DNA of 64,000 bases. It comes from a virus (Duplodnaviria; Caudoviricetes). The stretch lies in the IMG/VR virus record IMGVR_UViG_3300028797_000005, positions 59,247 to 123,246 of that record; one strand, given 5' to 3'. The notes below the pieces were generated by a model, which did no database searches, was not told the origin of the DNA, and worked only from the letters and a program-made list of their open reading frames with translations. Numbering within the stretch: position 1 is the stretch's first letter; the number at the start of each line of letters is the position of its first letter. Made by a program: the position numbers and the translations under genes. Below are positions 2,356 to 63,541 of the stretch, piece by piece.

Positions 2356-3915
2356 TTGGCACAACAGAATACTGAACAGTTGCTGATAGGTAGCTTAATG
2401 CACGAGCCGAAATTATTATTGCAGACGGATCGGTATCAGATTACATCTGCTGATTTTGAGAACCCTGTATACAAATATATCTTTTGGGCAATAGAGAATC
2501 TAGCACCTGGGGCAACTAAAGAATTAACTCCATATGAAATTGAGAAATGGATGTTTAATAGTCCATCTGCGAAAGCAATATATGAATCAAGGAATGGACG
2601 TCAAGCATTAGTTGATTGTGAAGCTGTTCCAGTTGGTTCATTTGATGGTCTTTATTCATCATTTAAAAAAGAAAACTTGATACATGATTTATCGAGTAAA
2701 ATGAAAATTGATACAAGTGATCTCTATGTAGAAACACCTGTAACAGAATATGAGAAAAAAGTTGATGAAGTATTTGCGAACTCAACAACTCAAGACATAA
2801 TTGATAGAATTGATAAAGAATTTGTCCAGTTAAAGAGTAAGTATATTCTAAATGATACAAGTGAAAGTCAGACATTGTATGAAGGAATGGAAGATATGTT
2901 GGCCGACCTTGAAGTTAATCCAGAAATTGGACTGCCGCTTCAGGGTAAGATATTTAATCATGCAGTAAGCGGCGCAATTAAAGGTCGTTTTTATCTTCGT
3001 TCTGGTCAAAGCGGTCTTGGTAAAACTCGTTCATTAATGGCAGATGCGTGTGAATTGGCATTTCCTGTGTGTTTTTCATGGGATCAAATGAAATGGGTAC
3101 AAAGTGGCTGCTGTGAAAAAGTAATGATTATCATTACAGAGCAGAACTTTGATGAAGTTAGGAAGATGGCAATAGCTTATCTTACTGGAATTAATGAATC
3201 CAAGATTAAGCGTGGACTTTGTAATGCACAGGAAAAGGCAGTCATAAGTCAAGCACTGTCAGTATTTAAGTATTATGAAGATAACTTTAGAGTAATCAGA
3301 GTACCTAGTCCAAGTATCTCACTTATTAAGCAATTAGTAAGAGAACAGGTCATGATGTATGATATTGGATATGTGTTCTACGATTACATTTTTGTGTGTC
3401 CGTCATTATTATCTGAGTTTAAAGGAGTAAACTTGAGAAACGATGAAATTTTATTAATGTTCTCAGATGCGCTCAAACAATTAGCTGTCGAACTTGATGT
3501 GTTCGTAATGTCAAGTACACAAGTTAATGCAAATGCAGATAATAATAAAGATATTAGAAATGAAGCATCAATTGCAGGCAGCCGCGCAGTAATCAATAAA
3601 GCTGACATGGGCTGTATTATGGCGCGACCTACAAAAGATGAATTAGAGGTTATCGGTAGAGTAAATGATAGCGGTTGGACGCCGAATATTGTAACAGACA
3701 TCTATAAGCTACGAGGTGGAGAAAACACGCAGATAAGAATTTGGTCTATCATGGATTTAGGCACCTTGAGGAAATGTGATTTATTTGTAACAGATTCAAG
3801 ATTAAATATAGTAGATATTGGTTATGAGAAAATTGAATATACATTATTAGAAGAAGATTATGATAAGTTAATGAAAATCTTGGGTGAACTAAACGAAGGA
3901 GTGATGATTGAATGA
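2356..3915 (+). CDS. dnaB: DnaB-like replicative helicase
   Basis: SGQSGLGKT Walker A, VFYDYI Walker B, STQVN, IAGSRAVINKAD motifs. Confidence 0.85.
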   Translation: MAQQNTEQLLIGSLMHEPKLLLQTDRYQITSADFENPVYKYIFWAIENLAPGATKELTPYEIEKWMFNSPSAKAIYESRNGRQALVDCEAVPVGSFDGLYSSFKKENLIHDLSSKMKIDTSDLYVETPVTEYEKKVDEVFANSTTQDIIDRIDKEFVQLKSKYILNDTSESQTLYEGMEDMLADLEVNPEIGLPLQGKIFNHAVSGAIKGRFYLRSGQSGLGKTRSLMADACELAFPVCFSWDQMKWVQSGCCEKVMIIITEQNFDEVRKMAIAYLTGINESKIKRGLCNAQEKAVISQALSVFKYYEDNFRVIRVPSPSISLIKQLVREQVMMYDIGYVFYDYIFVCPSLLSEFKGVNLRNDEILLMFSDALKQLAVELDVFVMSSTQVNANADNNKDIRNEASIAGSRAVINKADMGCIMARPTKDELEVIGRVNDSGWTPNIVTDIYKLRGGENTQIRIWSIMDLGTLRKCDLFVTDSRLNIVDIGYEKIEYTLLEEDYDKLMKILGELNEGVMIE

Positions 3916-4955
3916 TAGATGCCAAGAAACTAAAAGAATCATTAACTCCGGAAATGATAATCAACTTAATGCGGCTCCTGGGAGCTACACAGTATGAAGA
4001 TAAAGGTGAATATATTATGTTCCCGACTATCTGTCATAATGTACATGAAGAAGATGCTGGCTTCAACTTAAGCTATTACAAAGATAGTCACAGATTTTAT
4101 TGCTTCAGTAACTGTCATGCTATGGATATATTCCAATTAATTGAGAGGCGCTGGCGGCTTATTGATAGTGACGAAGACCTGCACTTTGAAAATATCCTAT
4201 ACTGGGTAATGAACCATTCCAAGATAGACCTTGACAACTATCAACCGGAAGATTTCAAAAGCCCAATAAATATTAAAGATTATCAGACAAAAACTACTGA
4301 AGTCGTGCTTCCAGAAAAAGACCCAACTGTATTAGATGCCTTTTCTAATTATCATGCAATAGAATGGCTTAATGATGGCATTTCTGATGAAGCTATGGAC
4401 AAGTATAACATTAAGTATTCACAACTGCGCAATGCCATAATTATTCCACACTATGATATTCATAATAGATTAGTCGGAATTAGACGGCGCGCGTTAGATG
4501 AAGAAGAAGCTAAGAAAGGCAAATATAAGCCTATTTATATAGAGAATGTCAGTTATTCTCACCCATTAGGCTATAACTTATATGGTCTTAATAATGTATG
4601 GGAAGAGATTAAAAGACAAAGAAGAGTATTCGTAGCTGAAGGTGAGAAGTCAGCGCTGCAAGCATATACATTATATGGTGATAGGAATGTCGTTGTATCG
4701 GTATGCGGCAGCCGGATTAACCGTTGGCAGATACATCTCTTAATGAAATATTGCCGGCCGAATGAGATAATTATTTCTTTCGACCAGGGTTTGGATTATG
4801 ACATCATTCACAAGATGTGTCAAAAATATAGTTGTTATTGTCAAATGTCTTATTTATGCGATGTAAGCGGTAAGTTATTAGGCGAAAAGCAAAGTCCTTT
4901 TGATGTGCCGGAAGCATTAGACGAATTAATAGATAAAAGGATTAAGGTCAAATGA
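3912..4955 (+). CDS. dnaG: DNA primase (Zn-binding + TOPRIM)
   Basis: TICHN...FYCFSNC Zn site, AEGEKS, SFDQ; follows helicase. Confidence 0.8.
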   Translation: MIDAKKLKESLTPEMIINLMRLLGATQYEDKGEYIMFPTICHNVHEEDAGFNLSYYKDSHRFYCFSNCHAMDIFQLIERRWRLIDSDEDLHFENILYWVMNHSKIDLDNYQPEDFKSPINIKDYQTKTTEVVLPEKDPTVLDAFSNYHAIEWLNDGISDEAMDKYNIKYSQLRNAIIIPHYDIHNRLVGIRRRALDEEEAKKGKYKPIYIENVSYSHPLGYNLYGLNNVWEEIKRQRRVFVAEGEKSALQAYTLYGDRNVVVSVCGSRINRWQIHLLMKYCRPNEIIISFDQGLDYDIIHKMCQKYSCYCQMSYLCDVSGKLLGEKQSPFDVPEALDELIDKRIKVK

Positions 4956-6670
4956 ATATTAAATTAAAGTATAATGTAGAAGCTCCATATGATATTAATT
5001 TAATTAAGGCTCGCGGCATTAAAGATGTGGAGGCTTTTCTTAATCCAAGTAGAGATAACCTTCAATCTCCGTGGGATTTAGATAATATGGAAGATGCCGT
5101 CGAAACTGTTAATGTCAATGCTCATTTTAATACTCTGGTTGTAGTTGATAGCGATGCTGATGGTTATAATAGCGCCAGTATGCTGATTAGCTATTTGCAA
5201 GATTGTTTCCCAACTTGGAGTATTGATTATTTTATTCATAGTAAGAAGCAGCACGGATTACAAGACGTAGTATTGCAGACTGATTTAAACAATTATGCTC
5301 TTGTGTTGCTCCCAGATGCTGGCAGTAATGATGATGAATATTTTGAGCAGTATCCTGAAACTAACTTTGTAGTGCTTGACCACCACTTGCGCGAAGGCTA
5401 TAAACCGATTCCTGAAAATGCAGTTATTGTGAATAACCAAAATTCTGAAAAATATTTGAACAAAGCGCTCTGCGGAGCTGGAGTAACTTGGCAATTCTGT
5501 CGTGCTTTTGATGATTATTATGGTTTCGATAATGCTTGGAAGTATATTGACCAGGCGGCCTTTGCAAATATCGGTGATGTGATGGATATTACTACTCCGG
5601 AAAATGCTTATATCATTAAAGAAGGCTTGACTAATCTTCATAATCAGTTCCTCAAATTACTCTGTAATAATGCAGCATATAGTTTAGGGGTTGAGCTTAC
5701 GCCGATAGGGGTTGCCTTTTATGTAATCCCCATGATAAATGCCATGTGCCGCACTGGTAAAATGGACGAAAAGGATAGAATGTTTACAGCCTTTACTTGG
5801 CCGGAAACAATGGTGACTTCTCATAAACGTGGCGTTGCGCCTGGTACTAAAGTCGAAGTCGGCATTGAGAGTGTAAGAGAATGCACCAATGCTAAATCTA
5901 GACAGAAGCGTGAGGGCACAAAAATGGCAGAGCTGTGTGATAAGAAGATTATTGAAGAAGACCTGTTAAGAAACAAGATAATCATTATTGTGCTTGACGA
6001 AACCTTTGACGATATTCCATCTGAAATGAACGGCCTCGCCGCCACCCAGCTGTCGAATAAATATAATCACCCTGTCTATATCTTGCGTGAGAATGAAGAT
6101 GGAGAACTCAAGGGTTCTGGCCGCGGGCTAGAGACTCTTGATATGCCACCGCTTAAGGAGTTTGTTGAACAGAGCGGCCTCATTGAGTTCGCACAAGGCC
6201 ATAACAATGCTCATGGCTTAGGGTTGAGAGCCAAAAATTTGGAAAAATTTATCGAATGGACTAATGAGCAGCTGAAAGATTTAGATATCGACTCAAAACT
6301 TTGGAATGTTGACTTTAAGCTGAAGGGCAATAGTACAGAAGTCAGGGACGTAATTTTCGCAACTGAGCATTTGCAGCCATACTTCGGAACAGGTTTCCCA
6401 GAGGTTGAAATAGCTGTAACTGATATTGAAGTACCACGCTCTGATATTAAAGTCATGGGTAAGCTGGGTGATACAGTTAAGGTAACATATAATGGAATCT
6501 CTTATATGTTCTTTAAACGCGATATTGAGGAGGTTAAGAAGTTAATTGAATATCCTCGTGCTAAATTCACTATCGTTGGCAAACCAAATCTTAATTACTA
6601 TAATGGACAGGTACTCCCACAGATATTTGTGGACGACTACACCATCGAAGACGCAAGATATAGTTTTTAA
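4952..6670 (+). CDS. recJ: RecJ-like DHH ssDNA exonuclease
   Basis: DSDADG, LDHH, GSGRG, QGHNNAHG motifs. Confidence 0.9.
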   Translation: MNIKLKYNVEAPYDINLIKARGIKDVEAFLNPSRDNLQSPWDLDNMEDAVETVNVNAHFNTLVVVDSDADGYNSASMLISYLQDCFPTWSIDYFIHSKKQHGLQDVVLQTDLNNYALVLLPDAGSNDDEYFEQYPETNFVVLDHHLREGYKPIPENAVIVNNQNSEKYLNKALCGAGVTWQFCRAFDDYYGFDNAWKYIDQAAFANIGDVMDITTPENAYIIKEGLTNLHNQFLKLLCNNAAYSLGVELTPIGVAFYVIPMINAMCRTGKMDEKDRMFTAFTWPETMVTSHKRGVAPGTKVEVGIESVRECTNAKSRQKREGTKMAELCDKKIIEEDLLRNKIIIIVLDETFDDIPSEMNGLAATQLSNKYNHPVYILRENEDGELKGSGRGLETLDMPPLKEFVEQSGLIEFAQGHNNAHGLGLRAKNLEKFIEWTNEQLKDLDIDSKLWNVDFKLKGNSTEVRDVIFATEHLQPYFGTGFPEVEIAVTDIEVPRSDIKVMGKLGDTVKVTYNGISYMFFKRDIEEVKKLIEYPRAKFTIVGKPNLNYYNGQVLPQIFVDDYTIEDARYSF

Positions 6671-6672
6671 AT

Positions 6673-6701
6673 TTGACAAATGAACAAAATAATGGTATAC
6701 T
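6673..6701 (+). promoter_or_regulatory. sigmaA promoter
   Basis: TTGACA-17-TATACT with TG extension. Confidence 0.8.
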
Positions 6702-6725
6702 AATATAAGAGAAAAGAGGTAAAAG

Positions 6726-9700
6726 ATGAGTTATAGTACATTACATATCCATACCGAAGCAAGTAACTTGCGGTTGCTTGATTGTATTAGTAAACCATCT
6801 CAGATATTAGACAAAGCTCATGATTTAGGTTTGCACGGAGTTGCTTTCACAGACCATGAGTCTTTGTCATCTTTTATTAAAGGTGAACAATATCTTGAAA
6901 GTAAAAGAGAAGTAGATGAGATTTGGAAGAATATGAAGTTCATTAGAGGTAATGAGATTTATCTTTGCCGGAATGGACTTAATAAAGATAATTATGATAG
7001 GTCTATTGATAGATATTATCACTTTATTTTATTAGCAAAAGATTATGAAGGTTATTTGCAATTATGTGAATTAAGCCGGCGCGCATGGACGAGAATGTTT
7101 AAGCAGTATCAGACAAGGGTGCCAACTTATTATAGTGATGTGATTGAAGTAATCGGAAGTAATCCAGGTCATATTATTGGTAGTACAGCTTGTATTGGTA
7201 GTCAGATTGGTAATAAGTTTCTTCAAGTATTAGATGAAAATATTGAGTTGCATGAAGCGATAGATTATAACGCGGCATGGCTTAATAGAATGAAAGAAAT
7301 CTTTGGAGAAGATAACTTATACATTGAGCTACAGCCGGGATTAACAAAAGAGCAAATATTTGTTAATGAGAATCTTGTCGAATTGAGCAAGATTGTTAAT
7401 CTTCCAATGATTATCACAACAGATGCTCATTATATTAATAAAGATGATAGAATCATTCATAAAGCATTTTTAAAGAGTAAAAATGGTGAAAGAGAAGTTG
7501 ATTCATTCTATGAAGCAACATATATGATGAGTGAAGATGAGATTCATCAGAGAATGGACAAATATCTTGGAAAAGATGTTGTTGATGAATGTCTGGAAAA
7601 CACAAACAAGATTGCAGACAGCATTGAAGATTATAGTTTGCTCAAGCCTTTGTCAATTCCTTATCTTCCAAAGAAAGAATATGATGAAGAATTGAGTAGT
7701 GAAGCGATTGAAAATTTATGGCAAATTGTTGGTGTGGTTCCAAGTTTAAAAAAATATATGACGCAGGGGCCATACATCACAGCAAACAATCAATTTGCGA
7801 TTCGTATTATTAACTTCATTAATAATAATAAGATTTATCTTGATGAAAAGAAATGTCAACAGATTGAAACAGAATTAAGTATTATTTGGGATTCGGGAGT
7901 AAAGCAAAATGTTGAATGGTCAAAATATTTTTTGCAGGTAGCAGATTATATTAAGATTTATTGGACATTAGGTGATTCGTTAACAGCTCCAAGCCGCGGT
8001 TCAGCTGGTGCATCATATATATGTTATATCTTGGGGATTACACAGATTGATCCAACAAGAGAAGCGGCGCCGATGATCTTCCAGAGATTCATGAATCCAG
8101 ATAGAGCGAGTGTTCTTGATATTGATACAGATATTCAGTCAAATAGACGGAATCAATGTATTAAAGCACTTCAGTCAGTTTATGGTGAAGACAGAGTAAC
8201 TCGTGTTGCAACATTTAAGACAGAGAAGGCAAGGTCAGCAATCTTAACTGCGGCAAGAGCATTAGATATTGACGTAGACACAGCAAGATATATTAGTAGT
8301 TTGGTTCAAGCAGAAAGAGGTATTCAATATACTTTAACTCAAACCTATTATGGGGATGAAGAAAATGATATTAAACCTAATAAGACTTTCATTCAGGAAA
8401 TGGAAAAGTATCCTGAATTATGGAAAATTGCGAAGGGAATTGAGGGTCTAATATCTGGGCTTGGGAGTCACGCTGGAGGCGTTATTATAACTGAAGAACC
8501 AATCACAGTAACCTGCGGTGTAATGAGAACCAGCTCTGGTGATATCGTAACGGCATATGACTTACATGAAGTTGAAGCGCAGAGTTTGATTAAGATTGAC
8601 TTGTTAGCAACAGAAGGTTTGACAAAAATTAGAACTTGTATTGATATGTTATGTGATTATGGATATGCAAAGAAGTATCCAACATTGAAAGAAACTTATG
8701 AGAATATTGTAGGTATTTATCATATCAATAGAATGGAACCGAAAATGTGGCAGATGGTTTGGAATAATGAGATTACATCATTGTTCCAGATGGAGCAACA
8801 GAGCGGTATCCAGGGTATTAGATTAACGAAACCAAGTTCATTGGAAGACTTAGCAACTCTTAACTCAGTTATTCGGTTAATGCCGCCGGATAGGAAATCA
8901 GAGCGGCCGCTTGAAAAGTTCGCGAGATTTAAGGAAGATCCAACAGCGTGGGAAGATGAAATGAACGCAGCTGGATTGACAGAAGAACAGAAAAAGTTAT
9001 TACATTCAATGTTTGATTATTCTAACGGTATCTCAGCTCAGCAAGAAGACTTGTATCAGTTAATGAGATGTGAAGATATTGTAGGATATTCATTCGGTCA
9101 AGCAGACAAATTAAGAAAAGCGGTAGCAAAGAAGAATCCAAAAGATTATGATGCGTTTGAAACACAATTTTGGAAAGATGTAAAAGAGCGCGGCAGCGAT
9201 TTTAACTTATGTCATTATATTTGGAATGAGATGGTTAAGCCGCAGAAAGGATATTCGTTTAACCTCGCTCATTGTTTATCTTATAGTATGGTTGCGTTGC
9301 AGGAAATGAATCTTGCATATTATTATCCTATCATCTTTTGGAACACGGCAAACTTAATAGTTGATTCTGGGTCAGAATATAAGATGTATTATAATGATGA
9401 GCCAGATGAAGAAGTTGACGAAGAAGAAGTTGACGAAGATGAAGAAGATAACAAAACAAGTAACTATGGCAAGATAGCAACGGCAATAGGGAAGATGCAA
9501 CAAAAAGGCATTTATGTATTGCCGCCGAATATAAATGATTCTCAGTTCACATATACAGTTAATGTCAAAAAGAATGAAATCCATTATGGATTAAAAGGAA
9601 TTGAAAAAGTCGGTAATAAAGTAATTAATGATATTATTAACAATCGTCCATATAAGTCAGTTGATGATTTCTTAAACAAAGTTAAGGTAAATAAAACACA

Positions 9701-10670
9701 GATGGTCAATTTGATTAAGTGCGGCGCATTTGATCAATTTGGAGACAGAGTACAGATAATGAAGAATTATCTTGTTACAGTATCTGGCGGCAAGATGAGA
9801 TTAACTTTGCAGAATGTTGGAACATTAATTGAGAATGATTTAATCCCGAAAGATGAGTATGGATTTAACATTAGTGTGTTTAAGTTCAACAAGTATCTTC
9901 GTAAGTTTAAAGATAAAGAAAATAATGCAATTTTATTAGATGAAAATGCGTTTCCGATTTTTGAAGAGCATTTTGATATTGATAAAATAATCGCAGGTTC
10001 AGATGGTAAATCATATATTGATGCAAATTATTGGAAGAGTGTGTATGATTCATACATGGCACCATTAAGAGATTATATAAAGAAGAATCAAGATGAATTG
10101 ATTTTTGCTTTAAATAGTAAGTTAATGGGAGATATTTATGAAAAATATGCAAGTGGTAATTTGGCGAAATGGTCGATGGATTCAGTAAACTTCTATCAAG
10201 GTGACCATGAGTTGAAGAACGCAAAATTGAGTAGATATAATATAAAAGATTTTTATAGTCTGCCGGTTGAACCAGTAGTAGATAGAAGTTTCACAGCAAA
10301 AGATGGACATATTGTAAATATGTATAAGCTGGATAAAATTGCGGGCACAGTAATTGATAAAGATAAGTTAAAAAGTCAGATTACATTGTTAACATTAAAT
10401 GGTGTTGTAACGGTTCAAGCATATGGTGTGTTCCCACAGTATGACAAACAGGTTAGCGAAATGGGAGCAGATGGACATAAGCACGTTGTAGAAAAGTCAT
10501 GGTTTAGTCGAGGAAACAAGATAATCGTGAATGGTATGCGGCGTGGAGAGTCGACATTTGTTGCAAAAAAATATGCAAGTGATTTAGGTCATCATTTTAT
10601 GTTGATTAAAGAAATATTGCCGGATGGAGATTTAATCATTCAAGAGGAACGTATAGAGGTTGAGGAATGA
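6726..10670 (+). CDS. dnaE: DNA polymerase III alpha subunit (C family)
   Basis: PHP domain HIHT/TDH/TTDAHY, SRGSAG, DIDTD, HAGG, KIDLL, YSFNLAH. Confidence 0.95.
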   Translation: MSYSTLHIHTEASNLRLLDCISKPSQILDKAHDLGLHGVAFTDHESLSSFIKGEQYLESKREVDEIWKNMKFIRGNEIYLCRNGLNKDNYDRSIDRYYHFILLAKDYEGYLQLCELSRRAWTRMFKQYQTRVPTYYSDVIEVIGSNPGHIIGSTACIGSQIGNKFLQVLDENIELHEAIDYNAAWLNRMKEIFGEDNLYIELQPGLTKEQIFVNENLVELSKIVNLPMIITTDAHYINKDDRIIHKAFLKSKNGEREVDSFYEATYMMSEDEIHQRMDKYLGKDVVDECLENTNKIADSIEDYSLLKPLSIPYLPKKEYDEELSSEAIENLWQIVGVVPSLKKYMTQGPYITANNQFAIRIINFINNNKIYLDEKKCQQIETELSIIWDSGVKQNVEWSKYFLQVADYIKIYWTLGDSLTAPSRGSAGASYICYILGITQIDPTREAAPMIFQRFMNPDRASVLDIDTDIQSNRRNQCIKALQSVYGEDRVTRVATFKTEKARSAILTAARALDIDVDTARYISSLVQAERGIQYTLTQTYYGDEENDIKPNKTFIQEMEKYPELWKIAKGIEGLISGLGSHAGGVIITEEPITVTCGVMRTSSGDIVTAYDLHEVEAQSLIKIDLLATEGLTKIRTCIDMLCDYGYAKKYPTLKETYENIVGIYHINRMEPKMWQMVWNNEITSLFQMEQQSGIQGIRLTKPSSLEDLATLNSVIRLMPPDRKSERPLEKFARFKEDPTAWEDEMNAAGLTEEQKKLLHSMFDYSNGISAQQEDLYQLMRCEDIVGYSFGQADKLRKAVAKKNPKDYDAFETQFWKDVKERGSDFNLCHYIWNEMVKPQKGYSFNLAHCLSYSMVALQEMNLAYYYPIIFWNTANLIVDSGSEYKMYYNDEPDEEVDEEEVDEDEEDNKTSNYGKIATAIGKMQQKGIYVLPPNINDSQFTYTVNVKKNEIHYGLKGIEKVGNKVINDIINNRPYKSVDDFLNKVKVNKTQMVNLIKCGAFDQFGDRVQIMKNYLVTVSGGKMRLTLQNVGTLIENDLIPKDEYGFNISVFKFNKYLRKFKDKENNAILLDENAFPIFEEHFDIDKIIAGSDGKSYIDANYWKSVYDSYMAPLRDYIKKNQDELIFALNSKLMGDIYEKYASGNLAKWSMDSVNFYQGDHELKNAKLSRYNIKDFYSLPVEPVVDRSFTAKDGHIVNMYKLDKIAGTVIDKDKLKSQITLLTLNGVVTVQAYGVFPQYDKQVSEMGADGHKHVVEKSWFSRGNKIIVNGMRRGESTFVAKKYASDLGHHFMLIKEILPDGDLIIQEERIEVEE

Positions 10671-11958: not shown

Positions 11959-14217
11959 ATGAGAGTAGAAGACTGGCTGGGTAAAGACAATCAACTTGGT
12001 ATAGATATTTGGAATAAGAAATATCGTCATGGTAACGAAACATTTGACGAATGGATTGAACGTGTTAGTGGAGGCAATAAAAGTATTGCTAAACTAATCA
12101 AAGAAAAGAAATTCCTCTTCGGTGGCCGTATTTTAAGCAACAGAGGATTAGCCAAAGAAGGCCGCAAGATTACATATAGTAACTGCTATGTTATTCCTGC
12201 GCCGGAGGATAATCTTGAATCTATTTTTGATACAGCTAAATCTCTTGCGCGTACTTATTCCTATGGTGGCGGCTGCGGCGTTGATCTCGGTAAACTTGCG
12301 CCGGCAGGAGCTAAAGTAAGAAATGCAGCTGAGACATCTAGTGGAGCAGTATCCTTTATGGATTTTTACTCTACCGTTACTGGTCTCATTAGTCAGAATG
12401 GTCGTCGTGGCGCGCTCATGCTTTCATTGCCGATTAATCACCCCGATATTGAGAAGTTTATTCATATCAAATCTGATCTTGGCGCAGTAACTAAAGCCAA
12501 TATCTCTGTAAGAATTACTGATGATTTTATGGAAGCAGTTGGGCTTAATAAACCATATAAATTGTCATTCACAAGAGAAGCAACTGGCGAAACCATTGAA
12601 AAAGAAATAAATGCTAAAGAGTTCTTTACAGAACTTTGCCGCATGAATTGGGATTATGCCGAACCTGGTATCTTATATTGGAATACGATTGAACAACACA
12701 ATTTCCTTCGTGGCTATGAAGAATTTGAATATGCTGGAACGAATCCTTGTGCAGAAGAGCCATTACCGGCCGGCGGTTCCTGTTTGCTTGGTTCAATTAA
12801 CCTAGCTGAGTTTGTAAATGATAAAGGTCAGTTTATGACTGATGATTTTAGATTTGCGGTTCAAGACGCTGTAATTGCTTTAAATGAAGTATTAGACGAA
12901 GGCCTCCCACTCCATCCGCTTAAAGTGCAGCAAGATTCTGTACGAGATTGGCGTCAAATTGGTCTAGGTATTATGGGTCTTGCTGATACTCTTATTAAAC
13001 TTGGTATAAAATATGGTGATAGAACAGCTGTTGAGTTCTCAAGTCGTGTTAGCGCAATTATGATGACAGCAGCTATAAAAATGTCTATTGATTTAGCTGC
13101 GATAAAAGGTTCATTCCCAAAATATAACTATGCCAAGACTCTTGACTCAATGATAATTTCTTATCTTGATACTAAAACTTACCGTCATTTGAAACAAAAC
13201 GGAATAAGAAATTCTCAGCTTCTTACCTGCGCTCCAACTGGTAGTATTAGTACCATGCTTGGCGTGAGCGGCGGCATTGAACCAATTTTTGCAAATTATT
13301 ATACAAGAAAAACTGAGTCGTTACATGGTCACGATGAGTATTATAAAGTTTATACTCCAATTGTGGCAGATTACATGAAACGGAATAACTTAACAGATGA
13401 TAGTCAGCTTCCAGACTACTTCGTGACTGCCCATGAAATCGCTCCTAAGGATCGTATTTTAATGCAGGCGGCATGGCAGGCTAATATTGACGCTAGCATT
13501 AGTTCAACAGTTAATCTTCCTAATGAAGCAACCGTGGAAGAAGTTATAGATCTTTACCTGGACGCTTGGCATTATGGTTTAAAAGGCTTAACAATCTTCC
13601 GTGATGGCTGTGCTAGAGTTGGTATTCTTACTACCGATAAGCCAAAAGAAGAAAAGAAGAAAGTAGTAAAACCAGCTGGCCGAGTTCTTCGGAGAGGCGA
13701 AATTATTGCCGTTGATGATGACCTTATAGGAGTTAAAAAGAAACTCATGTCAGGCTGCGGCACTCTCCATTGTGAAGCCTTCTTCGACAAATATGATGGA
13801 AGTTTTAGAGAAATTTATCTAAGCAAAGGCTCTACTGGCGGCTGTAACAACTTTATGATTGGCTTAAGCCGCATGATTTCTCTTGCTGCTCGTGGTGGAA
13901 TTGCGCTCGAAGATATTATTGATCAATTAATGTCAACTGGTGTTTGCCCATCATATAGAGCAAGAACAGTTACCAAACATGATACTTCCCAAGGTTCATG
14001 TTGTCCAATGGCTGTCGGCTATGCGCTCAGAGAAATGCAGGAAGAAATTCTTGAATATATTATAAACAGACCAGTAGCTGATGAACCAGTTAGTGATACT
14101 GATATTAACAATGATAGTGAAAAAATTATTGCCAAATGTCCGGATTGCGGCGCTGATCTCGAATGGAGTAATGGCTGCGTGCATTGTCCAGAGTGCGGCT
14201 ATAGTAAATGTGATTAG
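11959..14217 (+). CDS. nrdJ: Class II (B12-dependent) ribonucleotide reductase
   Basis: SNCYV, GRRGALM, TNPCAEEPL, APTGSIS, C-terminal Zn ribbon; no beta subunit nearby. Confidence 0.9.
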   Translation: MRVEDWLGKDNQLGIDIWNKKYRHGNETFDEWIERVSGGNKSIAKLIKEKKFLFGGRILSNRGLAKEGRKITYSNCYVIPAPEDNLESIFDTAKSLARTYSYGGGCGVDLGKLAPAGAKVRNAAETSSGAVSFMDFYSTVTGLISQNGRRGALMLSLPINHPDIEKFIHIKSDLGAVTKANISVRITDDFMEAVGLNKPYKLSFTREATGETIEKEINAKEFFTELCRMNWDYAEPGILYWNTIEQHNFLRGYEEFEYAGTNPCAEEPLPAGGSCLLGSINLAEFVNDKGQFMTDDFRFAVQDAVIALNEVLDEGLPLHPLKVQQDSVRDWRQIGLGIMGLADTLIKLGIKYGDRTAVEFSSRVSAIMMTAAIKMSIDLAAIKGSFPKYNYAKTLDSMIISYLDTKTYRHLKQNGIRNSQLLTCAPTGSISTMLGVSGGIEPIFANYYTRKTESLHGHDEYYKVYTPIVADYMKRNNLTDDSQLPDYFVTAHEIAPKDRILMQAAWQANIDASISSTVNLPNEATVEEVIDLYLDAWHYGLKGLTIFRDGCARVGILTTDKPKEEKKKVVKPAGRVLRRGEIIAVDDDLIGVKKKLMSGCGTLHCEAFFDKYDGSFREIYLSKGSTGGCNNFMIGLSRMISLAARGGIALEDIIDQLMSTGVCPSYRARTVTKHDTSQGSCCPMAVGYALREMQEEILEYIINRPVADEPVSDTDINNDSEKIIAKCPDCGADLEWSNGCVHCPECGYSKCD

Positions 14218-51122: not shown

Positions 51123-51388
51123 TATTTTACTATCGGCTCCATTACAGATAATATAAACTTTCTTTTGCTCTTGGAAGTGGATACAAAAGCATCAACAAGT
51201 TCAGACAAAATAATATCATAATCTTTTTCAGTTATTGTAGCCTTCTCTTGTCCGTCGGCGTCTGTACCGTCTTCTCTTGTTACAAGTTCGACACCTAATA
51301 GCCTAGCAATTCCTACAGCCTCAATAACCTCTAATTGTGTGAGATATTTAAGAAATTTTAATACCTCTCTATCTTTACTTCTTTTCAT
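51122..51388 (-). CDS. Hypothetical protein
   Basis: Operon packing. Confidence 0.65.
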   Translation of the reverse strand: MKRSKDREVLKFLKYLTQLEVIEAVGIARLLGVELVTREDGTDADGQEKATITEKDYDIILSELVDAFVSTSKSKRKFILSVMEPIVK

Positions 51389-52781
51389 TATTTTGCTCCT
51401 TGATGGCCTTTTTTAATACTTTACAGTCTTTACAATAGTTAAAGAAGCCATCATTAGAAGTAACGCGCTTATTAAAGTATTCGGTATTCCGTGGCAGTAA
51501 CTTGCCGCAGCAGGAACAGCGTTTGAAAACATTTTTACCCATTAAAATATATTCGACATTTTTATAATGTTTTTCGACTTCTTTAATAATTGCATTTACT
51601 ATCCTTTTCGTAAATATAGTAGAAATATAATTTTCTTTATAATCTAATCCGTAATTTTCTTTAAGATGTTCGCTTATACTTCTATTGGACACGCCGCTAA
51701 TTTTGGCATAAAGAATATATTTTAAATCATCTGAAAAATTACATTTATGAATATAATAATCAATATATTTAATTAATTTATTGACTATCTCGTACTCCTG
51801 ATAAGGAAGGTCAGATAAAGAATCTATAAAATCATTCCGCATAAAAAGAACTTCGCGAACGGTTTTCGGATCCCTTAAGTCGATTTCCCGTATACCAACC
51901 CCGGCGTCGGCATTTTGTAGTTCTTTTATGCAAAGATCTTGGAATGGCCTGTTAAAGAATGAATCTTCAAAATTTTCAAATAATAATTCTTCTGCCATAA
52001 AAGGTTTGAAGCCTATTAAACCATTGTCATTGTCATTCCAATATAGACCAATATTACCATGTTTTTGAAGTGATTCACCTTGTAAAGCATCAAGTAAGGT
52101 GTACTGTTCAGTTCGTAAGGCAACCAGCTGCCGCTTCTGCTTCAATGCCGTATATCCATCCCAGGCTCCGGCCGCAGCTTCAAGGGCCGCTATTAATTCA
52201 CCATAAGTGTCATAGGGATGATTATAATACGCAAAGAAAGCCAATCTCTCCAATAGTTCCTGTCTAATTGGTAGATCGGCTCGGCGCTTGCCATTCTTAA
52301 GTTCCCAGTATTGAACCTGGTATTCTGTTTTATCTATCTGTCCCCATAAATCAAACCAAGTAATGGTTTGATAACTTAATGAATAATCGAAAGGCGGCAG
52401 GGTATCGTTCGGGCGGCTCAGTATCTCATTAATTGTCGCCGTCGGCATTTCAAAATTTAACTTAACTAGTACACAATTTCTATCTAATTTTCTTTTCTTA
52501 CCTTTCTCTTGAACTTCACTAATTTGCTGATAAACGCTTTTTCTATTACCTTCTAATTCCTCTTCTTGTAATGCTTGCCAAGATATATGCTTACTTTCGC
52601 GACTCTTCCAGGGGCTGTGCGCAGAATCTATCTCGAAATCAGGCGACGGCACGGTCCATAATAAATAGTTGGCCATCATTTCGAGATTCGAGTCTGTAAA
52701 TTGTTTGTCTTGTATATACGTGTCAAGATACGCTAATCTTTCTTCCGGCGTATCTAACTGGAAGTCCAAATTTAATCGCAT
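51375..52781 (-). CDS. Hypothetical protein with HTH-like segment and C-terminal Zn ribbon (possible regulator)
   Basis: SNRSISEHL...ENYISTI; KRCSCCG...YCKDC. Confidence 0.55.
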   Translation of the reverse strand: MRLNLDFQLDTPEERLAYLDTYIQDKQFTDSNLEMMANYLLWTVPSPDFEIDSAHSPWKSRESKHISWQALQEEELEGNRKSVYQQISEVQEKGKKRKLDRNCVLVKLNFEMPTATINEILSRPNDTLPPFDYSLSYQTITWFDLWGQIDKTEYQVQYWELKNGKRRADLPIRQELLERLAFFAYYNHPYDTYGELIAALEAAAGAWDGYTALKQKRQLVALRTEQYTLLDALQGESLQKHGNIGLYWNDNDNGLIGFKPFMAEELLFENFEDSFFNRPFQDLCIKELQNADAGVGIREIDLRDPKTVREVLFMRNDFIDSLSDLPYQEYEIVNKLIKYIDYYIHKCNFSDDLKYILYAKISGVSNRSISEHLKENYGLDYKENYISTIFTKRIVNAIIKEVEKHYKNVEYILMGKNVFKRCSCCGKLLPRNTEYFNKRVTSNDGFFNYCKDCKVLKKAIKEQNNEKK

Positions 52782-55445: not shown

Positions 55446-55504
55446 AATTGTCAAACTATTCTGACTTCGCGGCGGGCCGCCATTGTCAGAACATTCTGAT
55501 AAGG
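55446..55504. repeat. CodY-operator-like pair, 35-bp period
   Basis: Cores at 55448 and 55483 around GC linker. Confidence 0.8.
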
Positions 55505-58173: not shown

Positions 58174-58275
58174 TCAATCTTCTACCAGTAGGCACTCGTT
58201 GATATAAACAGCGCAAGCGAGATTTTCCACAGTGTAGTCAATTTCCGAAAAGAATCCAATCGTAACCAGTTCCAT
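58174..58275 (-). CDS. 33-aa peptide MELVTIGFFSEIDYTVENLACAVYINECLLVED
   Basis: GAGGAG RBS, own promoter, hairpin 58131-58158. Confidence 0.6.
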   Translation of the reverse strand: MELVTIGFFSEIDYTVENLACAVYINECLLVED

Positions 58276-58463
58276 AATTTTATCTCCTCTCTTTATCTTG
58301 ATTAAAGTATACCACAATTCTCCGGCATTGTCAACACTTTTTTATTAAAAAATTTTTTTATTTTTTTATGAAAAAACACTTGACAAGCCAACGGCATTAT
58401 GTTATTATAATAGTGGGAAGTGGAGTGGACACCGAGGACGCAAACACTCGGGCAGCAATTTTT

Positions 58464-58592
58464 TATTTTCAGAATATTCTGACAATGACGGGCGGTGTAA
58501 TTGTCAGAATATTCTGATGGTTGTGGGCGGCATAATTATCAGAATATTCTGTTAAAAGTAGGCGGCCAAATTGTCAGAATATTCTGAATCTT
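58464..58592. repeat. Four CodY-operator-like elements at exact 35-bp period
   Basis: AGAATATTCT at 58471, 58506, 58541, 58576; GGCGG at 58491, 58526, 58561. Confidence 0.9.
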
Positions 58593-58636
58593 GCAAGATG
58601 CAAGACTTTAATGTAATGAAGCGCTAAAGCGATGAA

Positions 58637-58732
58637 GTTAGTCGCGACTAACCGGAGTTAGTCCGGACTAACCTGGGTTAGCCTGCTGCAACCTGAGTTA
58701 GCCTGCTGCAACCTGAGTTAGCCTGGTCTAAT
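58637..58732. repeat. 5 x 20-bp tandem array of GTTAG-N6-CTAAC-like palindromes
   Basis: GTTAG at 58637, 58657, 58677, 58697, 58717. Confidence 0.9.
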
Positions 58733-58734
58733 CT

Positions 58735-58772
58735 CCTGCATATTTATGCAGACTCCTGCATATTATGCAAGC
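58735..58772. repeat. Tandem ARG-box-like palindromes
   Basis: TGCATATTTATGCA at 58737 and TGCATATTATGCA at 58757. Confidence 0.6.
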
Positions 58773-58882
58773 TGTCCGAAAAATGGGACTGGCAATAATT
58801 GGTAGAAAAAATTGCGAAAAAGTGTTGACAAACAAGCCGGCATTTGTTATAATTAGTACAGAGTTAAGGAAGGAGATACCTA

Positions 58883-59356
58883 ATGAAAACTACACTTTGC
58901 AACCTTTACACCAAACACGCCTACTGCCACAACTATATTTTCGGTTATGTAGAAAACGGCAAGGTTTACGCCGCTTACACCACCGCCGCCGCCCTGCCTG
59001 CCGTTGTAAAACTTGACAGAGCAAGCCGCGGAAACGGCTACTCAATCCGCTTTAAGGGCGGCTACGATGAAGTCGAGCAGCTGAAAAAGTCGGCTCTGAA
59101 AATTGAATACATCTGCTCCGAGGAATTCCTCGAACAGGTCGCCGAGGAAGTCAGCACAGGCAGAAAAAACAGAGGTTCGGCTTTTGAAAAAATCCTCACC
59201 GAAAAAGTCGGACAGGTCTGGAAAAAGGATAGCGTACCGTTTACGGAAGCTCCCGACCTCGTAATTGACGGAATCGGTTATCAAATCAAATACAAGGGCG
59301 CGACCTTTGCGAATGAAGCCCAGTTGAACAGACTGGAAGCCAAGGCGGAAGCCTAA
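58883..59356 (+). CDS. Hypothetical protein, possible PD-(D/E)xK nuclease fold
   Basis: RGSAFE...APDLVIDGIGYQIK. Confidence 0.55.
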   Translation: MKTTLCNLYTKHAYCHNYIFGYVENGKVYAAYTTAAALPAVVKLDRASRGNGYSIRFKGGYDEVEQLKKSALKIEYICSEEFLEQVAEEVSTGRKNRGSAFEKILTEKVGQVWKKDSVPFTEAPDLVIDGIGYQIKYKGATFANEAQLNRLEAKAEA

Positions 59357-61265: not shown

Positions 61266-61324
61266 AGTTGTCAGATAATTCTGACAACTTGGGCCGGCGG
61301 CATTATCAGAATATTCTGAATATA
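61266..61324. repeat. CodY-operator-like pair, 35-bp period
   Basis: Cores at 61268 and 61303. Confidence 0.8.
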
Positions 61325-61707: not shown

Positions 61708-61766
61708 AGTTGTCAGAATTATCTGACAACTTTGCCGGCCGCCGTTTTCAGAATATTCAGAATAAT
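61708..61766. repeat. CodY-operator-like pair, 35-bp period
   Basis: Cores at 61710 and 61745. Confidence 0.8.
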
Positions 61767-61981
61767 TTTAATATTCCGCGTTTTAATTTAACGCTTGACT
61801 TTCGACCAAAATTTTGCTATAATCTTATTGTCAAGGGTTGAGAGTGGCAACGGCAAGCGAGCCGCTCTCGAAAAAAAATTAAAAAAAAGTTTTAAAAACC
61901 TCTTGACAGAATCGAAAAATTATGTTATACTTAACTCGTAAGTTAAGAGAGAGCCGAAAGGCAAGAAAGGAAAGGTTCATT

Positions 61982-62287
61982 ATGACCAAGAGAGAAATGT
62001 TTGAAGCTATCGTCAATGGTAACATCACTGAGGAAGTCATCGCTATGGCTCAGAAAGAGCTGAATCGTGGAGCGGAAGCTCGTGCGGCTAAGACGGCTGA
62101 ACAGAACGAAACCGATACTGCGGTTATCGATGCGCTCGAACAGGCTACTGCTTATGTTCCTGCGTCTGAAATCGCTGAAACTGCGGGTCTGACCGTGGGT
62201 AAGGTAACGGCTTCTCTGAAGCGTCTGCGTGTGGCTGAAAAGGTGCTTGTCATCGAGGGTAAGCCTAACACTTACAAGCTTGCGTAG
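61982..62287 (+). CDS. Winged-HTH DNA-binding protein
   Basis: ASEIAETAGLTVGKVTASLKRL...GKPNTYKL; terminator 62307-62340. Confidence 0.7.
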   Translation: MTKREMFEAIVNGNITEEVIAMAQKELNRGAEARAAKTAEQNETDTAVIDALEQATAYVPASEIAETAGLTVGKVTASLKRLRVAEKVLVIEGKPNTYKLA

Positions 62288-62348: not shown

Positions 62349-62407
62349 AATTGTCAGAATATTCTGACAATTCGGGCCGGCCAAATAGTCAGAAAATTCT
62401 GACTATT
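62349..62407. repeat. CodY-operator-like pair, 35-bp period
   Basis: AATTGTCAGAATATTCTGACAATT-CGGGCCGGCCA-AATAGTCAGAAAATTCTGACTATT. Confidence 0.85.
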
Positions 62408-63482: not shown

Positions 63483-63541
63483 AATTGTCGGAATTGTCCG
63501 ACAATTTGGCCGGCGCCAATTTTCAGAATATTCAGAAAATT
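63483..63541. repeat. CodY-operator-like pair, 35-bp period
   Basis: Second element AATTTTCAGAATATTCAGAAAATT = two 1-mismatch CodY boxes overlapping by 6 bp. Confidence 0.85.

What the first reader, a model, noticed from the sequence alone, without database searches (positions are those of the whole stretch)
58464..58772. Back-to-back panel of four different operator-like arrays: candidate multi-repressor decoy or sensor hub
Seen: 310 bp of non-coding DNA tiled almost without gaps by 4 x 35-bp CodY-like operators, an 8-bp-periodic T(G/A)AAG run (58605-58637), 5 x 20-bp GTTAG-N6-CTAAC units and 2 x 20-bp TGCATA-N1-2-TATGCA units. Each block has its own dyad and period, implying different dimeric binders. 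Several resemble host metabolic regulator sites (CodY, ArgR, and more weakly metal-dependent and TrpR-family repressors). Inference: a DNA sponge that redirects host metabolism without encoding enzymes. I know no described system of this form, but could not search for one.
Basis: partly seen in the sequence, partly recalled or inferred. Interest (0 to 1): 0.88.

Follow-up and report, generated by a model that had tools for sequence, protein, structure and literature searches.

The report
Host-repressor docking panel in phage DNA
A 310-bp gene-free stretch at the head of this rumen phage's early genes is tiled with binding sites, one set matching the operator that gut bacteria put in front of their iron-uptake (feoA) genes and another matching the CodY nutrient-repressor box, so the phage DNA probably docks host regulators to read or soak up the host's metal and nutrient state.

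Summary
Window 58464-58772 holds four back-to-back repeat blocks:
- 4 x 35-bp units (A)
- a short TAAAG-type block (D)
- 5 x 20-bp GTTAG-N6-CTAAC units (B; three good, two degenerate)
- 2 x 20-bp CTGCATA palindromes (C)

The window comes from a complete, circular 123-kb phage. It is distantly SPbeta-like and has no integrase. The panel sits at the divergent early-promoter hub.

B is the best-identified block. The same tandem pair lies between the -35 box and the start codon of FeoA genes and DtxR/MntR-family repressor genes, in at least 120 bacterial loci from many phyla. Arrays of 2-29 copies occur in 61 phage contigs. The phage encodes no DtxR homologue.

A matches the published 24-bp double CodY box at 22 of 24 positions. 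It is confined to the early region (13 versus 0 elsewhere) and lies upstream of most early promoters. The phage encodes no CodY homologue.

D looks specific to the phage lineage. C is unassigned. The ArgR and TrpR resemblances are not supported.

No paper I found describes such panels. This scan has noted the same kind of array on other phage genomes.

The parts
58306..58334 (-). Leftward early promoter (TTGACA-17-TATACT), the last of the minus-strand series
   Evidence: Promoter scan
58338..58375 (.). Almost pure A/T tract between the two divergent -35 boxes. It could serve as UP elements for both promoters or as an unwinding element.
   Evidence: Sequence. The genome-wide cumulative GC-skew minimum falls at window 58392.
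58380..58408 (+). Promoter P1 (TTGACA-17-TGtTATTAT), the first rightward early promoter. It fires into the panel, not into an ORF.
   Evidence: no ORF downstream
58414..58463 (+). Purine-rich leader ending in a T-run, with no convincing intrinsic terminator
   Evidence: RNA fold -14.3 kcal/mol, z -2.3, 5-bp hairpin. Similar promoter-leader-array units occur in relatives.
58464..58592 (.). Block A: four 24-bp double CodY-type boxes (58464-58487, 58499-58522, 58534-58557, 58569-58592) at a 35-bp period, with GC-rich GGCGG spacers
   Evidence: The dispersed A consensus matches AATTTTCWGAAWWTTCWGAAAATT at 22 of 24 positions (PMC9318921).
58589..58605 (.). Small palindrome TCTTGCAAGATGCAAGA between blocks A and D
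58606..58636 (.). Block D: a TAAAG/TGAAG run with a weak 8-bp period. It corresponds to the CTTTAG-N4-CTAAAG / YTAAAGYG modules that sit next to B arrays in related phages.
   Evidence: Sequence. Homologous modules in L044, L059, L049, L073, L063. Found in 24 of 79 related loci. Not enriched in Lachnospiraceae genomes.
58637..58732 (.). Block B: five 20-bp units of the DtxR/MntR-type operator GTTAG-N6-CTAAC. Units at 58637 and 58657 are perfect, 58717 has one mismatch, and 58677 and 58697 keep the left half-site only.
   Evidence: Identified through bacterial feoA/DtxR promoters.
58733..58770 (.). Block C: two CTCC-CTGCATA(T/TT)TATGCA palindromes 20 bp apart; binder unknown. They occupy the slot just upstream of P2, where relatives carry other short repeats, for example four DnaA boxes in L071.
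   Evidence: Not conserved in relatives.
58825..58853 (+). Promoter P2 (perfect TTGACA-17-TGtTATAAT), which drives the first rightward early gene
58883..59356 (+). First rightward early gene ('fam2', 157 aa). It has no Pfam or PHROG family and is widespread in related phages. It is a neighbour of the panel, not a specific partner.

Best explanation
The panel is a block of protein-binding DNA sites at the divergent early-promoter hub of a virulent, distantly SPbeta-like phage of a rumen Firmicute.

At least one block, the GTTAG-N6-CTAAC array (B), is the operator of a host metal-dependent DtxR/MntR-family repressor. The 35-bp units (A) are most probably double CodY boxes for the host nutrient sensor CodY. 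D and C are sites for unidentified binders, and the binder of D is probably phage-encoded.

Proposed mechanism (inferred, not shown). Metal-loaded DtxR-type dimers and GTP/branched-chain-amino-acid-loaded CodY dock side by side on the DNA between promoters P1 and P2. There they gate, mainly as roadblocks, the strong P1 transcription that would otherwise run through the panel into the rightward early genes. The single A elements upstream of most other early promoters tie the whole early programme to the same signal. The phage thereby reads the host's metal and nutrient state at the moment of infection. Sequestration of these regulators as genome copies multiply would be a side effect or a second function.
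For: Shown here:
1. The blocks are real and non-coding.
2. The tandem B pair lies between the -35 box and the start codon of FeoA genes in 39 bacterial loci. It also precedes DtxR-family repressor genes (Fe_dep_repress plus Fe_dep_repr_C), Fe-type binding proteins and other genes. It occurs in at least 120 bacterial loci from Firmicutes, Melainabacteria, Actinomycetota, Spirochaetes, Proteobacteria and Fibrobacter.
3. B arrays of 2-29 units occur in 61 viral contigs, including unrelated 13-kb PolB phages.
4. In 48 cases a consensus promoter precedes the first B site by 8-113 nt, and in the closest cases the site sits at an operator position over the transcription start.
5. The complete phage genome and the fetched phage loci encode no DtxR or CodY homologue, so the binders must be host proteins or unrecognisable phage ones.
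6. A matches the 24-bp double CodY box at 22 of 24 positions. CodY-type boxes number 13 (24-mer) and 25 (15-mer) in the 13-kb early region, against 0 and 4 in the other 110 kb.
7. 16 of 25 strong early promoters have an A element 24-180 bp upstream, on both strands.
8. A relative (L003) and unrelated low-GC phages carry dense arrays of the same units, including the exact CodY consensus.
9. Bacteria exist that have both CodY and the B operator.

Precedent: phi29 carries host Spo0A sites that repress its early promoters and block replication initiation (PMC2731898).
Against: - No binding or expression data exist, and the host is unknown.
- In this phage B does not overlap a core promoter. It lies about 220 bp downstream of P1 and about 95 bp upstream of P2. 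P2 is a perfect consensus promoter that would express the first gene regardless.
- A elements never overlap core promoters, which is unusual for a simple repressor.
- The extended A palindrome (with G at position 5 and C at position 20) occurs about twice as often as its reversed control in 401 Clostridia genomes, and most of the 25 fetched matches lie inside ORFs. So A could belong to an unrecognised phage protein.
- Arrays of up to 29-31 B sites in relatives exceed what regulation needs.
- The bacterial regulators found next to B are short (125-150 aa) and lack the SH3 domain. The literature links that form to Mn rather than Fe (PMC7762939), so the metal sensed is uncertain.
Confidence: 0.45

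Rival explanations
1. DNA sponge. The sites have no cis-regulatory role. As the phage genome replicates, hundreds of copies of 25-29 CodY-type double boxes and 3-5 DtxR-type sites titrate the host regulators. That would derepress feoAB and metal uptake and the CodY regulon (amino-acid supply) to the phage's benefit.
For: - Relatives carry arrays far larger than regulation needs: 29 B sites in L071, 18 in L037 and L060, 19 in L051.
- Many arrays have no ORF downstream.
- A elements sit in the untranscribed gaps between terminators and promoters, where bound protein would not be swept off.
- Different relatives carry different host-type operators (Rex-type, LexA-type, CtsR-type, DtxR-type, CodY-type), as expected if each targets a different regulon.
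- The phage encodes no homologue of the regulators.
Against: - This phage has only 3-5 B sites, so titration would need high genome copy number and could only act late, not at takeover.
- The A sites are distributed one per early promoter and confined to the early region, which is the pattern of a cis element, not a bulk sink.
- B arrays in relatives are often directly downstream of strong promoters, where transcription would disturb occupancy.
- My literature searches found no natural phage precedent.
Confidence: 0.22
2. Replication origin or other nucleoprotein platform. The phased arrays act as iterons that assemble a host-protein/phage-protein complex next to an A/T-rich unwinding tract. 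Transcription from the flanking strong promoters, with purine-rich leaders, would activate or prime it.
For: - The genome-wide cumulative GC-skew minimum lies at window 58392, right at P1 and the A/T tract.
- A 38-bp A/T tract sits between divergent promoters.
- The 5 x 20-bp and 4 x 35-bp arrays look like iterons.
- In the 13-kb linear PolB phage L053, both inverted terminal repeats each carry three B-like units. By analogy with phi29-type phages, these ends would be the origins.
- L071 has four perfect DnaA boxes beside its B array.
Against: - The skew curve follows gene strand: there are two minima and two maxima that match the strand blocks, and this point is simply the strand switch.
- There are no DnaA boxes in or near this panel.
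- The replication genes lie about 50 kb away.
- Relatives have up to eight separate B arrays within 14 kb (L051), too many for origins.
- The A/T tract is explained by UP elements of two back-to-back promoters.
Confidence: 0.13
3. All four blocks are operators for phage-encoded early or middle regulators, analogous to SPBRE-MrpR in SPbeta. The likeness to host operators would be convergence or mimicry.
For: - A dispersed repeat at about 10 early promoters, bound by a phage master repressor, is documented for SPbeta (PMC10516654).
- The phage is distantly SPbeta-like by its portal protein.
- D is not enriched in host genomes.
- The conserved G5/C20 variant of A is not seen at host promoters.
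- The early region is full of ORFan proteins, and one carries a winged helix at 61922-62287.
Against: - B has the same half-sites, the same N6 spacing and the same 20-bp tandem period as the bacterial feoA/DtxR operator. It is shared by unrelated phage lineages.
- No recombinase-like (MrpR-type), DtxR-type or CodY-type protein is encoded.
- The winged-helix protein's homologues occur in phages that lack A sites.
Confidence: 0.12
4. The panel is the body of a non-coding RNA made from P1, a chain of hairpins that acts as RNA.
For: P1 fires into the panel and no good terminator intervenes. The predicted RNA is very stable, with z -11.7 for the A part and -4.5 for the B/C part.
Against: - The stability is an automatic consequence of the DNA palindromes.
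- There is no Rfam match; the best hits are far below the gathering scores.
- Only the protein-contact half-sites of B are conserved, while loops and linkers vary freely.
- The same sites work as DNA operators in bacteria.
- The dispersed A copies lie in untranscribed gaps.
Confidence: 0.05

Closest known systems
phi29/Nf: host Spo0A boxes (and parS sites) on a virulent Bacillus phage genome (PMC2731898)
   Same: A virulent Firmicute phage carries binding sites for a host global regulator at its early promoters and origins. Binding ties the lytic programme to host physiological state. No phage homologue of the regulator is needed.
   Different: Here the candidate regulators are a DtxR/MntR-type metal repressor and CodY, not Spo0A. 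The sites are stacked in phased arrays of several kinds in one gene-free panel. A sites sit upstream of the core promoters rather than over them. Nothing has been tested experimentally.
DtxR/IdeR iron box and the tox operator of corynephage beta (PMC7762939; iron box TTAGGTTAGGCTAACCTAA in PMC4598388 and PMC7174319)
   Same: A phage-borne operator for a host DtxR-family metal repressor. The half-sites (GTTAG/CTAAC, TTAGG/CCTAA) are the same.
   Different: The arrangement differs: half-sites are 6 bp apart and repeat every 20 bp, instead of the compact 19-bp box, and there are no iron-box hits in the genome. The associated bacterial regulators are short forms without an SH3 domain. The site is arrayed and does not overlap the promoter of a cargo gene.
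SPBRE-MrpR of Bacillus phage SPbeta (PMC10516654)
   Same: A short repeated element dispersed over about 10 intergenic early-promoter regions of a large, distantly related siphovirus, serving as the common operator of the early programme. This matches the genome-wide distribution of block A.
   Different: SPBRE is bound by a phage-encoded recombinase-fold repressor of a temperate phage. This phage has no integrase, resolvase or recombinase-like gene, and its element matches a host regulator's consensus.
Phage T5 injection-stop (iss) untranslated repeat region with 8 DnaA boxes (Davison, bioRxiv 10.1101/866236)
   Same: A gene-free phage region crowded with repeats and palindromes, including sites for a host DNA-binding protein, whose proposed function depends on docking that host protein.
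   Different: A different host protein (DnaA) and a different proposed role (arrest of DNA entry). The genome end and entry polarity are unknown here. That function is itself only a hypothesis.
Transcription-factor decoy arrays such as E. coli datA (from my own knowledge) and synthetic decoy sites (PMC7826281, PMC3322331)
   Same: Clusters of high-affinity sites that can titrate a regulator away from its regulon.
   Different: Those are chromosomal or engineered. No natural phage-borne multi-regulator decoy has been described in the literature I searched.

Membership tests
DtxR/IdeR/MntR-family operator | Inverted repeat built from TTAG(G)/(C)CTAA-type half-sites | tested here: met
   GTTAG-N6-CTAAC at 58637 and 58657 (perfect) and 58717 (one mismatch)
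DtxR/IdeR/MntR-family operator | The same site lies over the promoters of metal-uptake genes and of the regulator's own gene in bacteria | tested here: met
   The tandem pair lies between -35 and the start codon of FeoA (39 loci; PF04023, E 5e-19) and of Fe_dep_repress/Fe_dep_repr_C proteins (7 loci)
DtxR/IdeR/MntR-family operator | Canonical 19-bp iron-box arrangement TTAGGTTAGSCTAACCTAA | tested here: not met
   0 hits with up to 4 mismatches in the whole genome. Here the half-sites are 6 bp apart with a 20-bp tandem period, so this is a different operator architecture within the family.
DtxR/IdeR/MntR-family operator | Metal-dependent binding by the repressor | not testable with these tools
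   Needs EMSA, footprinting or ChIP. The metal (Fe or Mn) is uncertain, because the neighbouring regulators are short SH3-less forms.
CodY box | Match to AATTTTCWGAAAATT and to the overlapping 24-bp form AATTTTCWGAAWWTTCWGAAAATT | tested here: met
   22 of 24 for the A consensus. Early region versus rest of genome: 13 versus 0 (24-mer, up to 4 mismatches) and 25 versus 4 (15-mer, up to 2 mismatches)
CodY box | The host encodes CodY and uses this box at its own promoters | tested here: inconclusive
   The host is unknown. CodY is present in 2 of 5 genomes that carry the B operator. The extended palindrome with G5/C20 occurs in 50 of 401 Clostridia genomes, about twice as often as its reversed control, and most of the 25 fetched matches lie inside ORFs.
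CodY box | Binding by CodY in the presence of GTP/BCAA | not testable with these tools
   Needs EMSA, ChIP or IDAP-seq
Iteron-type replication origin | Phased direct repeats next to an A/T-rich unwinding element, at the skew switch | tested here: inconclusive
   The arrays, the 38-bp A/T tract and the global GC-skew minimum at 58392 are all present. However, skew follows gene strand and the tract lies between two -35 boxes.
Iteron-type replication origin | DnaA boxes or an adjacent initiator gene | tested here: not met
   No DnaA box (up to 1 mismatch) in 58300-58880. The nearest is TTTTCCACA at 58223. The helicase, primase and polymerase genes are at 2356-10670.
SPBRE-MrpR-type phage repressor system | Repeated element dispersed over early promoter regions | tested here: met
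   About 20 further A elements; 16 of 25 strong early promoters have one upstream
SPBRE-MrpR-type phage repressor system | Phage-encoded recombinase-fold master repressor, temperate lifestyle | tested here: not met
   No Phage_integrase or Resolvase match in the 100%-complete genome
Partition centromere (parS/parC type) | Adjacent ParA/ParB-type genes | tested here: not met
   No ParB_N or AAA_31 match in the genome and no parS
Transcription-factor decoy/sponge | Site number times genome copy number exceeds regulator abundance, and the host regulon is derepressed | not testable with these tools
   Needs infection transcriptomics and copy-number measurements

The most novel reading that the evidence does not exclude
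The panel, together with the roughly 25 dispersed A elements and the much larger arrays in related phages, is a genuine non-coding takeover device. Phage DNA would act as a multi-regulator sponge that sequesters the host's DtxR/MntR-type metal repressor and CodY (and, in relatives, Rex-, LexA- and CtsR-type regulators) as the genome replicates. That would switch on host metal uptake and amino-acid supply without any phage enzyme or protein effector.
Probability: 0.22. Interest if true: 0.9.

Novelty: new variant of a known kind. Interest (0 to 1): 0.7.

Why it matters
Host-regulator sites on phage genomes are known only as isolated cases, such as Spo0A boxes on phi29 and the DtxR operator of the diphtheria tox gene.

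Here, and in dozens of related and unrelated gut and rumen phage contigs, operators of host global regulators are stacked into phased, gene-free arrays, and different phages mix different operator types. If the arrays sense host state, they show that virulent phages of anaerobic Firmicutes wire their early programme to host metal and nutrient status. If they titrate regulators, they are a new, protein-free way of reprogramming host metabolism.

Either way the arrays have two practical uses. They give a sequence-only handle for predicting phage hosts, by matching operator sets to regulator repertoires. They also give a direct way to discover operator motifs of uncultured bacteria. The GTTAG-N6-CTAAC/feoA operator itself appears to be a widespread, little-described regulon signal.

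Tried and rejected
- First-gene protein (fam2, 58883-59356) as the cognate B binder. In B-selected loci it always had B upstream (14 of 15). In an unbiased set of 79 fam2 loci only 19 had B upstream, and downstream flanks were just as rich. I rejected it as a specific partner.
- Fold of fam2. The AF2 model has pLDDT 96, but there was no PDB match by Foldseek (best E 0.09) or VIA-wide (best Z 2.8). The Atlas gave only weak restriction-endonuclease-like leads. PDB sequence search found nothing.
- C-like TGCATAAATATGCA elsewhere in the genome. These are loops of GGCGG...CCGCC terminator hairpins, not operators.
- Known RNA family: none above threshold.
- Pac site: the terminase gene lies about 8 kb away and nothing links it to the panel.
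- parS: none in the window.
- ArgR, Fur, PerR, LexA, CIRCE, CtsR and NrdR scans of the panel: no hits in it. A Rex-like hit at 58812 is just the conserved -35 context of P2.
- D as a host operator: 4 hits against more than 50 control hits in 61 Lachnospiraceae genomes.
- blastn of the region against cultured phages: only an A/T-rich chance match to Staphylococcus phages. tblastn of fam2 against cultured phages: nothing.
- Pfam and PHROG searches on 20 early ORFs: almost all blank.
The viral scan worked.

Full report
WHAT IS THERE

The window is the last 64 kb of a 123,246-base contig whose first 127 bases repeat at its end. The genome is therefore a circular or terminally redundant 123,119-bp phage. 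CheckV rates it 100% complete. It encodes a DnaE-type polymerase, a DnaB-like helicase, a primase, RecJ, ribonucleotide reductase, a large terminase and a portal protein. The portal is distantly related (27-30% identity) to those of SPbeta-like, Enterococcus EF1-like and gut 'Phass-1' phages. There is no integrase, resolvase, ParA or ParB, so the phage is probably virulent.

Window 54.5-64 kb, continuing into genome 1-2 kb, is an early region. It is made of about 25 near-consensus sigma-A promoters, small ORFan genes and terminators. Leftward promoters end at 58334 and rightward promoters begin at 58380. The panel lies directly after this first rightward promoter (P1) and before the next one (P2, 58825), which drives the first rightward gene at 58883-59356.

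THE OBSERVATION

All four blocks exist as described.
- A is four copies of ATTGTCAGAATATTCTGA(CAAT) at an exact 35-bp period, with GGCGG-rich spacers.
- D (58606-58636) is a weak 8-bp run of TAAAG/TGAAG.
- B is five 20-bp units. Three are good GTTAG-N6-CTAAC sites and two keep only the left half-site.
- C is two CTGCATA palindromes 20 bp apart.

The A core with up to 1 mismatch occurs 13 times in the window against 0.03 expected. The panel is the strongest non-coding tandem-repeat cluster in the genome.

BLOCK B IS A HOST METAL-REPRESSOR OPERATOR

I scanned for the tandem pattern GTTAG-N6-CTAAC-N4-GTTAG-N6-CTAA(C). With 19-20 specified bases, I estimate about one chance match per collection.

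In viral contigs it found 61 stretches, with arrays of 2 to 29 units almost always at a 20-bp period. Some are relatives of this phage, sharing the terminase, a sigma-like protein and a nucleotidase. Others are unrelated, such as 13-kb phages with a protein-primed-type polymerase.

These come from Oscillospiraceae, Lachnospiraceae, Christensenellales, Gastranaerophilales, Actinomycetota, Treponema, Succinivibrionaceae, Fibrobacter and others. There the motif is a pair, placed between a TTGACA -35 box and a start codon. The gene behind it is FeoA in 39 loci and a 125-150-aa DtxR-family repressor in 7. In others it is an iron-type solute-binding protein, IlvD or another gene.

This is the signature of an autoregulated metal regulon. 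The half-sites are those of the classical IdeR/DtxR iron box TTAGGTTAGGCTAACCTAA, but the spacing differs and the canonical box is absent from the phage. Neither this phage nor the fetched phage loci encode a DtxR homologue. The natural binder of B is therefore the host's repressor. The regulators found are short SH3-less forms, which the literature links to Mn rather than Fe, so the metal remains open.

BLOCK A IS A DOUBLE CodY-TYPE BOX AND BELONGS TO A GENOME-WIDE SET

The 24-mer AATTGTCAGAATATTCTGACAATT matches the published overlapping CodY consensus AATTTTCWGAAWWTTCWGAAAATT at 22 of 24 positions. About 20 further copies lie in the early region. They are usually a composite of two boxes 35 bp apart with a GCCGGC-rich spacer, placed after a terminator and before the next promoter.

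CodY-type boxes are confined to the early region: 13 versus 0 for the 24-mer and 25 versus 4 for the 15-mer. Of the 25 strong early promoters, 16 have an A element 24-180 bp upstream of the -35 box, on both strands, and none has one over the core promoter.

A relative (L003) has a 600-bp gene-free tract of 9-bp-phased AATTCAGAA units that includes the exact CodY consensus. Several unrelated low-GC phage contigs carry similar arrays. The phage has no CodY homologue.

Against a host origin for A: the extended palindrome with its conserved G5/C20 occurs in 50 of 401 Clostridia genomes, about twice as often as its reversed control, and most of the 25 fetched matches lie inside genes. The CodY assignment therefore rests on motif likeness and distribution, not on a demonstrated host regulon. 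Bacteria that have both CodY and the B operator do exist, namely a Roseburia MAG and a Clostridium species.

BLOCKS D AND C

Modules like D (CTTTAG-N4-CTAAAG, YTAAAGYG runs) sit beside B arrays in several relatives and occur in 24 of 79 related loci. They are not enriched in 61 Lachnospiraceae genomes, with 4 hits against more than 50 for the reversed control. D therefore looks like a phage-lineage site.

C is not conserved in relatives. The slot just upstream of the first-gene promoter holds other short repeats there, including four perfect DnaA boxes in L071 and CtsR-like GGTCAAA-N3-AGTCAAA repeats in L044 and L059.

THE BROADER PATTERN

I took an unbiased sample of 79 loci chosen only by homology to the first rightward gene. 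The flanking 1 kb carries DtxR-type, clostridial Rex-type, LexA-type, CodY-type and CtsR-type sites and D sites far above shuffled expectation (0-2). Different phages show different mixtures and copy numbers.

The sample also corrected a false lead of mine. The first-gene protein is not a specific partner of B, because downstream flanks are just as rich in sites. That protein folds with high confidence (pLDDT 96) into something with no PDB match.

HOW IT MOST LIKELY WORKS

What is shown: the sites exist, B equals a bacterial feoA/DtxR operator, A equals the CodY consensus, and the phage lacks its own versions of these regulators. Everything about consequence is inference.

I favour cis-acting docking of host regulators that couples early transcription to host metal and nutrient state. 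The reasons are:
- A is distributed one per early promoter and only in the early region.
- In relatives, the closest B sites lie over the transcription start, and in 48 cases a consensus promoter precedes a B array by 8-113 nt.
- The phi29-Spo0A precedent shows exactly this logic in a virulent Firmicute phage.

In this phage the arrays would act as a roadblock between P1 and the rightward early genes. The P1 leader has no convincing terminator.

The sponge reading stays alive. Arrays in relatives are far larger than regulation needs, many have no gene downstream, and A sits in untranscribed gaps. However, 3-5 B sites per genome could titrate only late in infection.

An origin reading has some support. 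The genome-wide GC-skew minimum falls at 58392 beside a 38-bp A/T tract. B units lie in both terminal repeats of a small linear phage. But skew here tracks gene strand, there are no DnaA boxes, and relatives carry up to eight arrays. The ncRNA, pac-site and centromere readings are weak.

COMPARISON AND NOVELTY

The closest known cases are:
- phi29/Nf Spo0A boxes
- the DtxR-regulated tox operator of corynephage beta and the IdeR iron box
- SPBRE-MrpR of SPbeta
- the T5 injection-stop region with its DnaA boxes
- decoy arrays such as datA

None combines several regulators' operators in phased, gene-free arrays. My literature searches found no description of such arrays.

Earlier notes of this same scan describe the same class on other phage genomes. 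One has a 33-copy DtxR-type array with CtsR and DnaA sites; others are Rex/HrcA panels. I reached the DtxR assignment independently before reading them. They are unchecked AI notes and are not counted as evidence.

I class the finding as a new variant of a known kind, namely host-regulator sites on phage DNA. It has roughly a one-in-five chance of being something categorically new, a protein-free regulator sponge.

Noticed in passing
window 58883-59356: The first rightward early protein (157 aa) has at least 110 homologues in viral contigs. Its invariant residues are N96, G98, E102, F120, D125, Q134 and K136, a GD...QxK pattern reminiscent of PD-(D/E)xK nucleases. Its AF2 model has pLDDT 96 but matches no PDB fold (best Z 2.8). 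It is often present in 2-3 paralogues per phage.
   Followed up: partly
L020:12612-12632 and L022:12866-12886: Two 13-kb phage contigs with a protein-primed-type B polymerase carry a perfect host parS (TGTTTCACGTGAAACA) inside the 5' part of a gene, together with B arrays and an A box near the contig end. This is reminiscent of the phi29 parS sites.
   Followed up: no
L053:1-90 and 12980-13069: A 13,069-bp linear contig has imperfect ~90-bp inverted terminal repeats, each containing three GTTAG/TTTAG-N6-CTAAC units starting about 17 nt from the end. Host metal-repressor sites therefore sit in what are probably the replication origins of a small phage.
   Followed up: partly
L071:3957-4960, L060:1492-2049, L050:786-1400, L044:5636-6000: A recurrent unit in related phages: a consensus promoter, a short, often G/purine-rich leader (for example ggccggagaggggagggggagg), then a B array of up to 29 units with no ORF. 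The purpose of transcribing into an operator array is unexplained; roadblock, R-loop/origin priming or RNA are possibilities.
   Followed up: partly
window 55451-55499, 61271-61319, 61713-61761, 62354-62402, 63485-63536; genome 334-390, 1000-1055, 1956-2004: The dispersed A element is a ~55-bp composite: a strong 22-bp palindrome, a conserved GC-rich spacer (GCGCCGGCCGCC / GGCCGGCC), then a weaker second box. CodY binding would not require the conserved spacer. It may bind a second factor or serve as a recombination linker between early gene cassettes.
   Followed up: no
L234-L313 (79 fam2 loci): Clostridial Rex-type (TTGTTAA-N4-TTAACAA; 56 sites in 22 loci) and LexA-type (CGAAC-N4-GTTCG; 28 sites in 18 loci) motifs are strongly over-represented in the early regions of related phages. 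This phage has neither in its panel.
   Followed up: partly
window 51375-52781 (-): A 468-aa protein has a sigma-factor-like region (phrog_5767, E 3e-15) and a C-terminal zinc-finger-like tail that hits Lar/endonuclease VII families. It is conserved next to the terminase in relatives and is a possible phage sigma factor for middle or late genes.
   Followed up: no
window 58414-58468 and L059:11890-11960, L059 (minus strand) near 5300, L044:5665-5735: The P1 leader (…CCGAGGACGCAAACACUCGGGCAGCAAUUUUUUAUUUU) resembles leaders in relatives (…CGGACCCACGGCGAGG…UUUUUU). It may be a short conserved early RNA or attenuator upstream of the arrays.
   Followed up: no
bacterial loci L091, L099, L107, L110, L116 and others (16 loci): In Gastranaerophilales (Melainabacteria) the same tandem operator precedes a ~330-aa protein with no Pfam family, presumably a new member of the metal regulon.
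   Followed up: no
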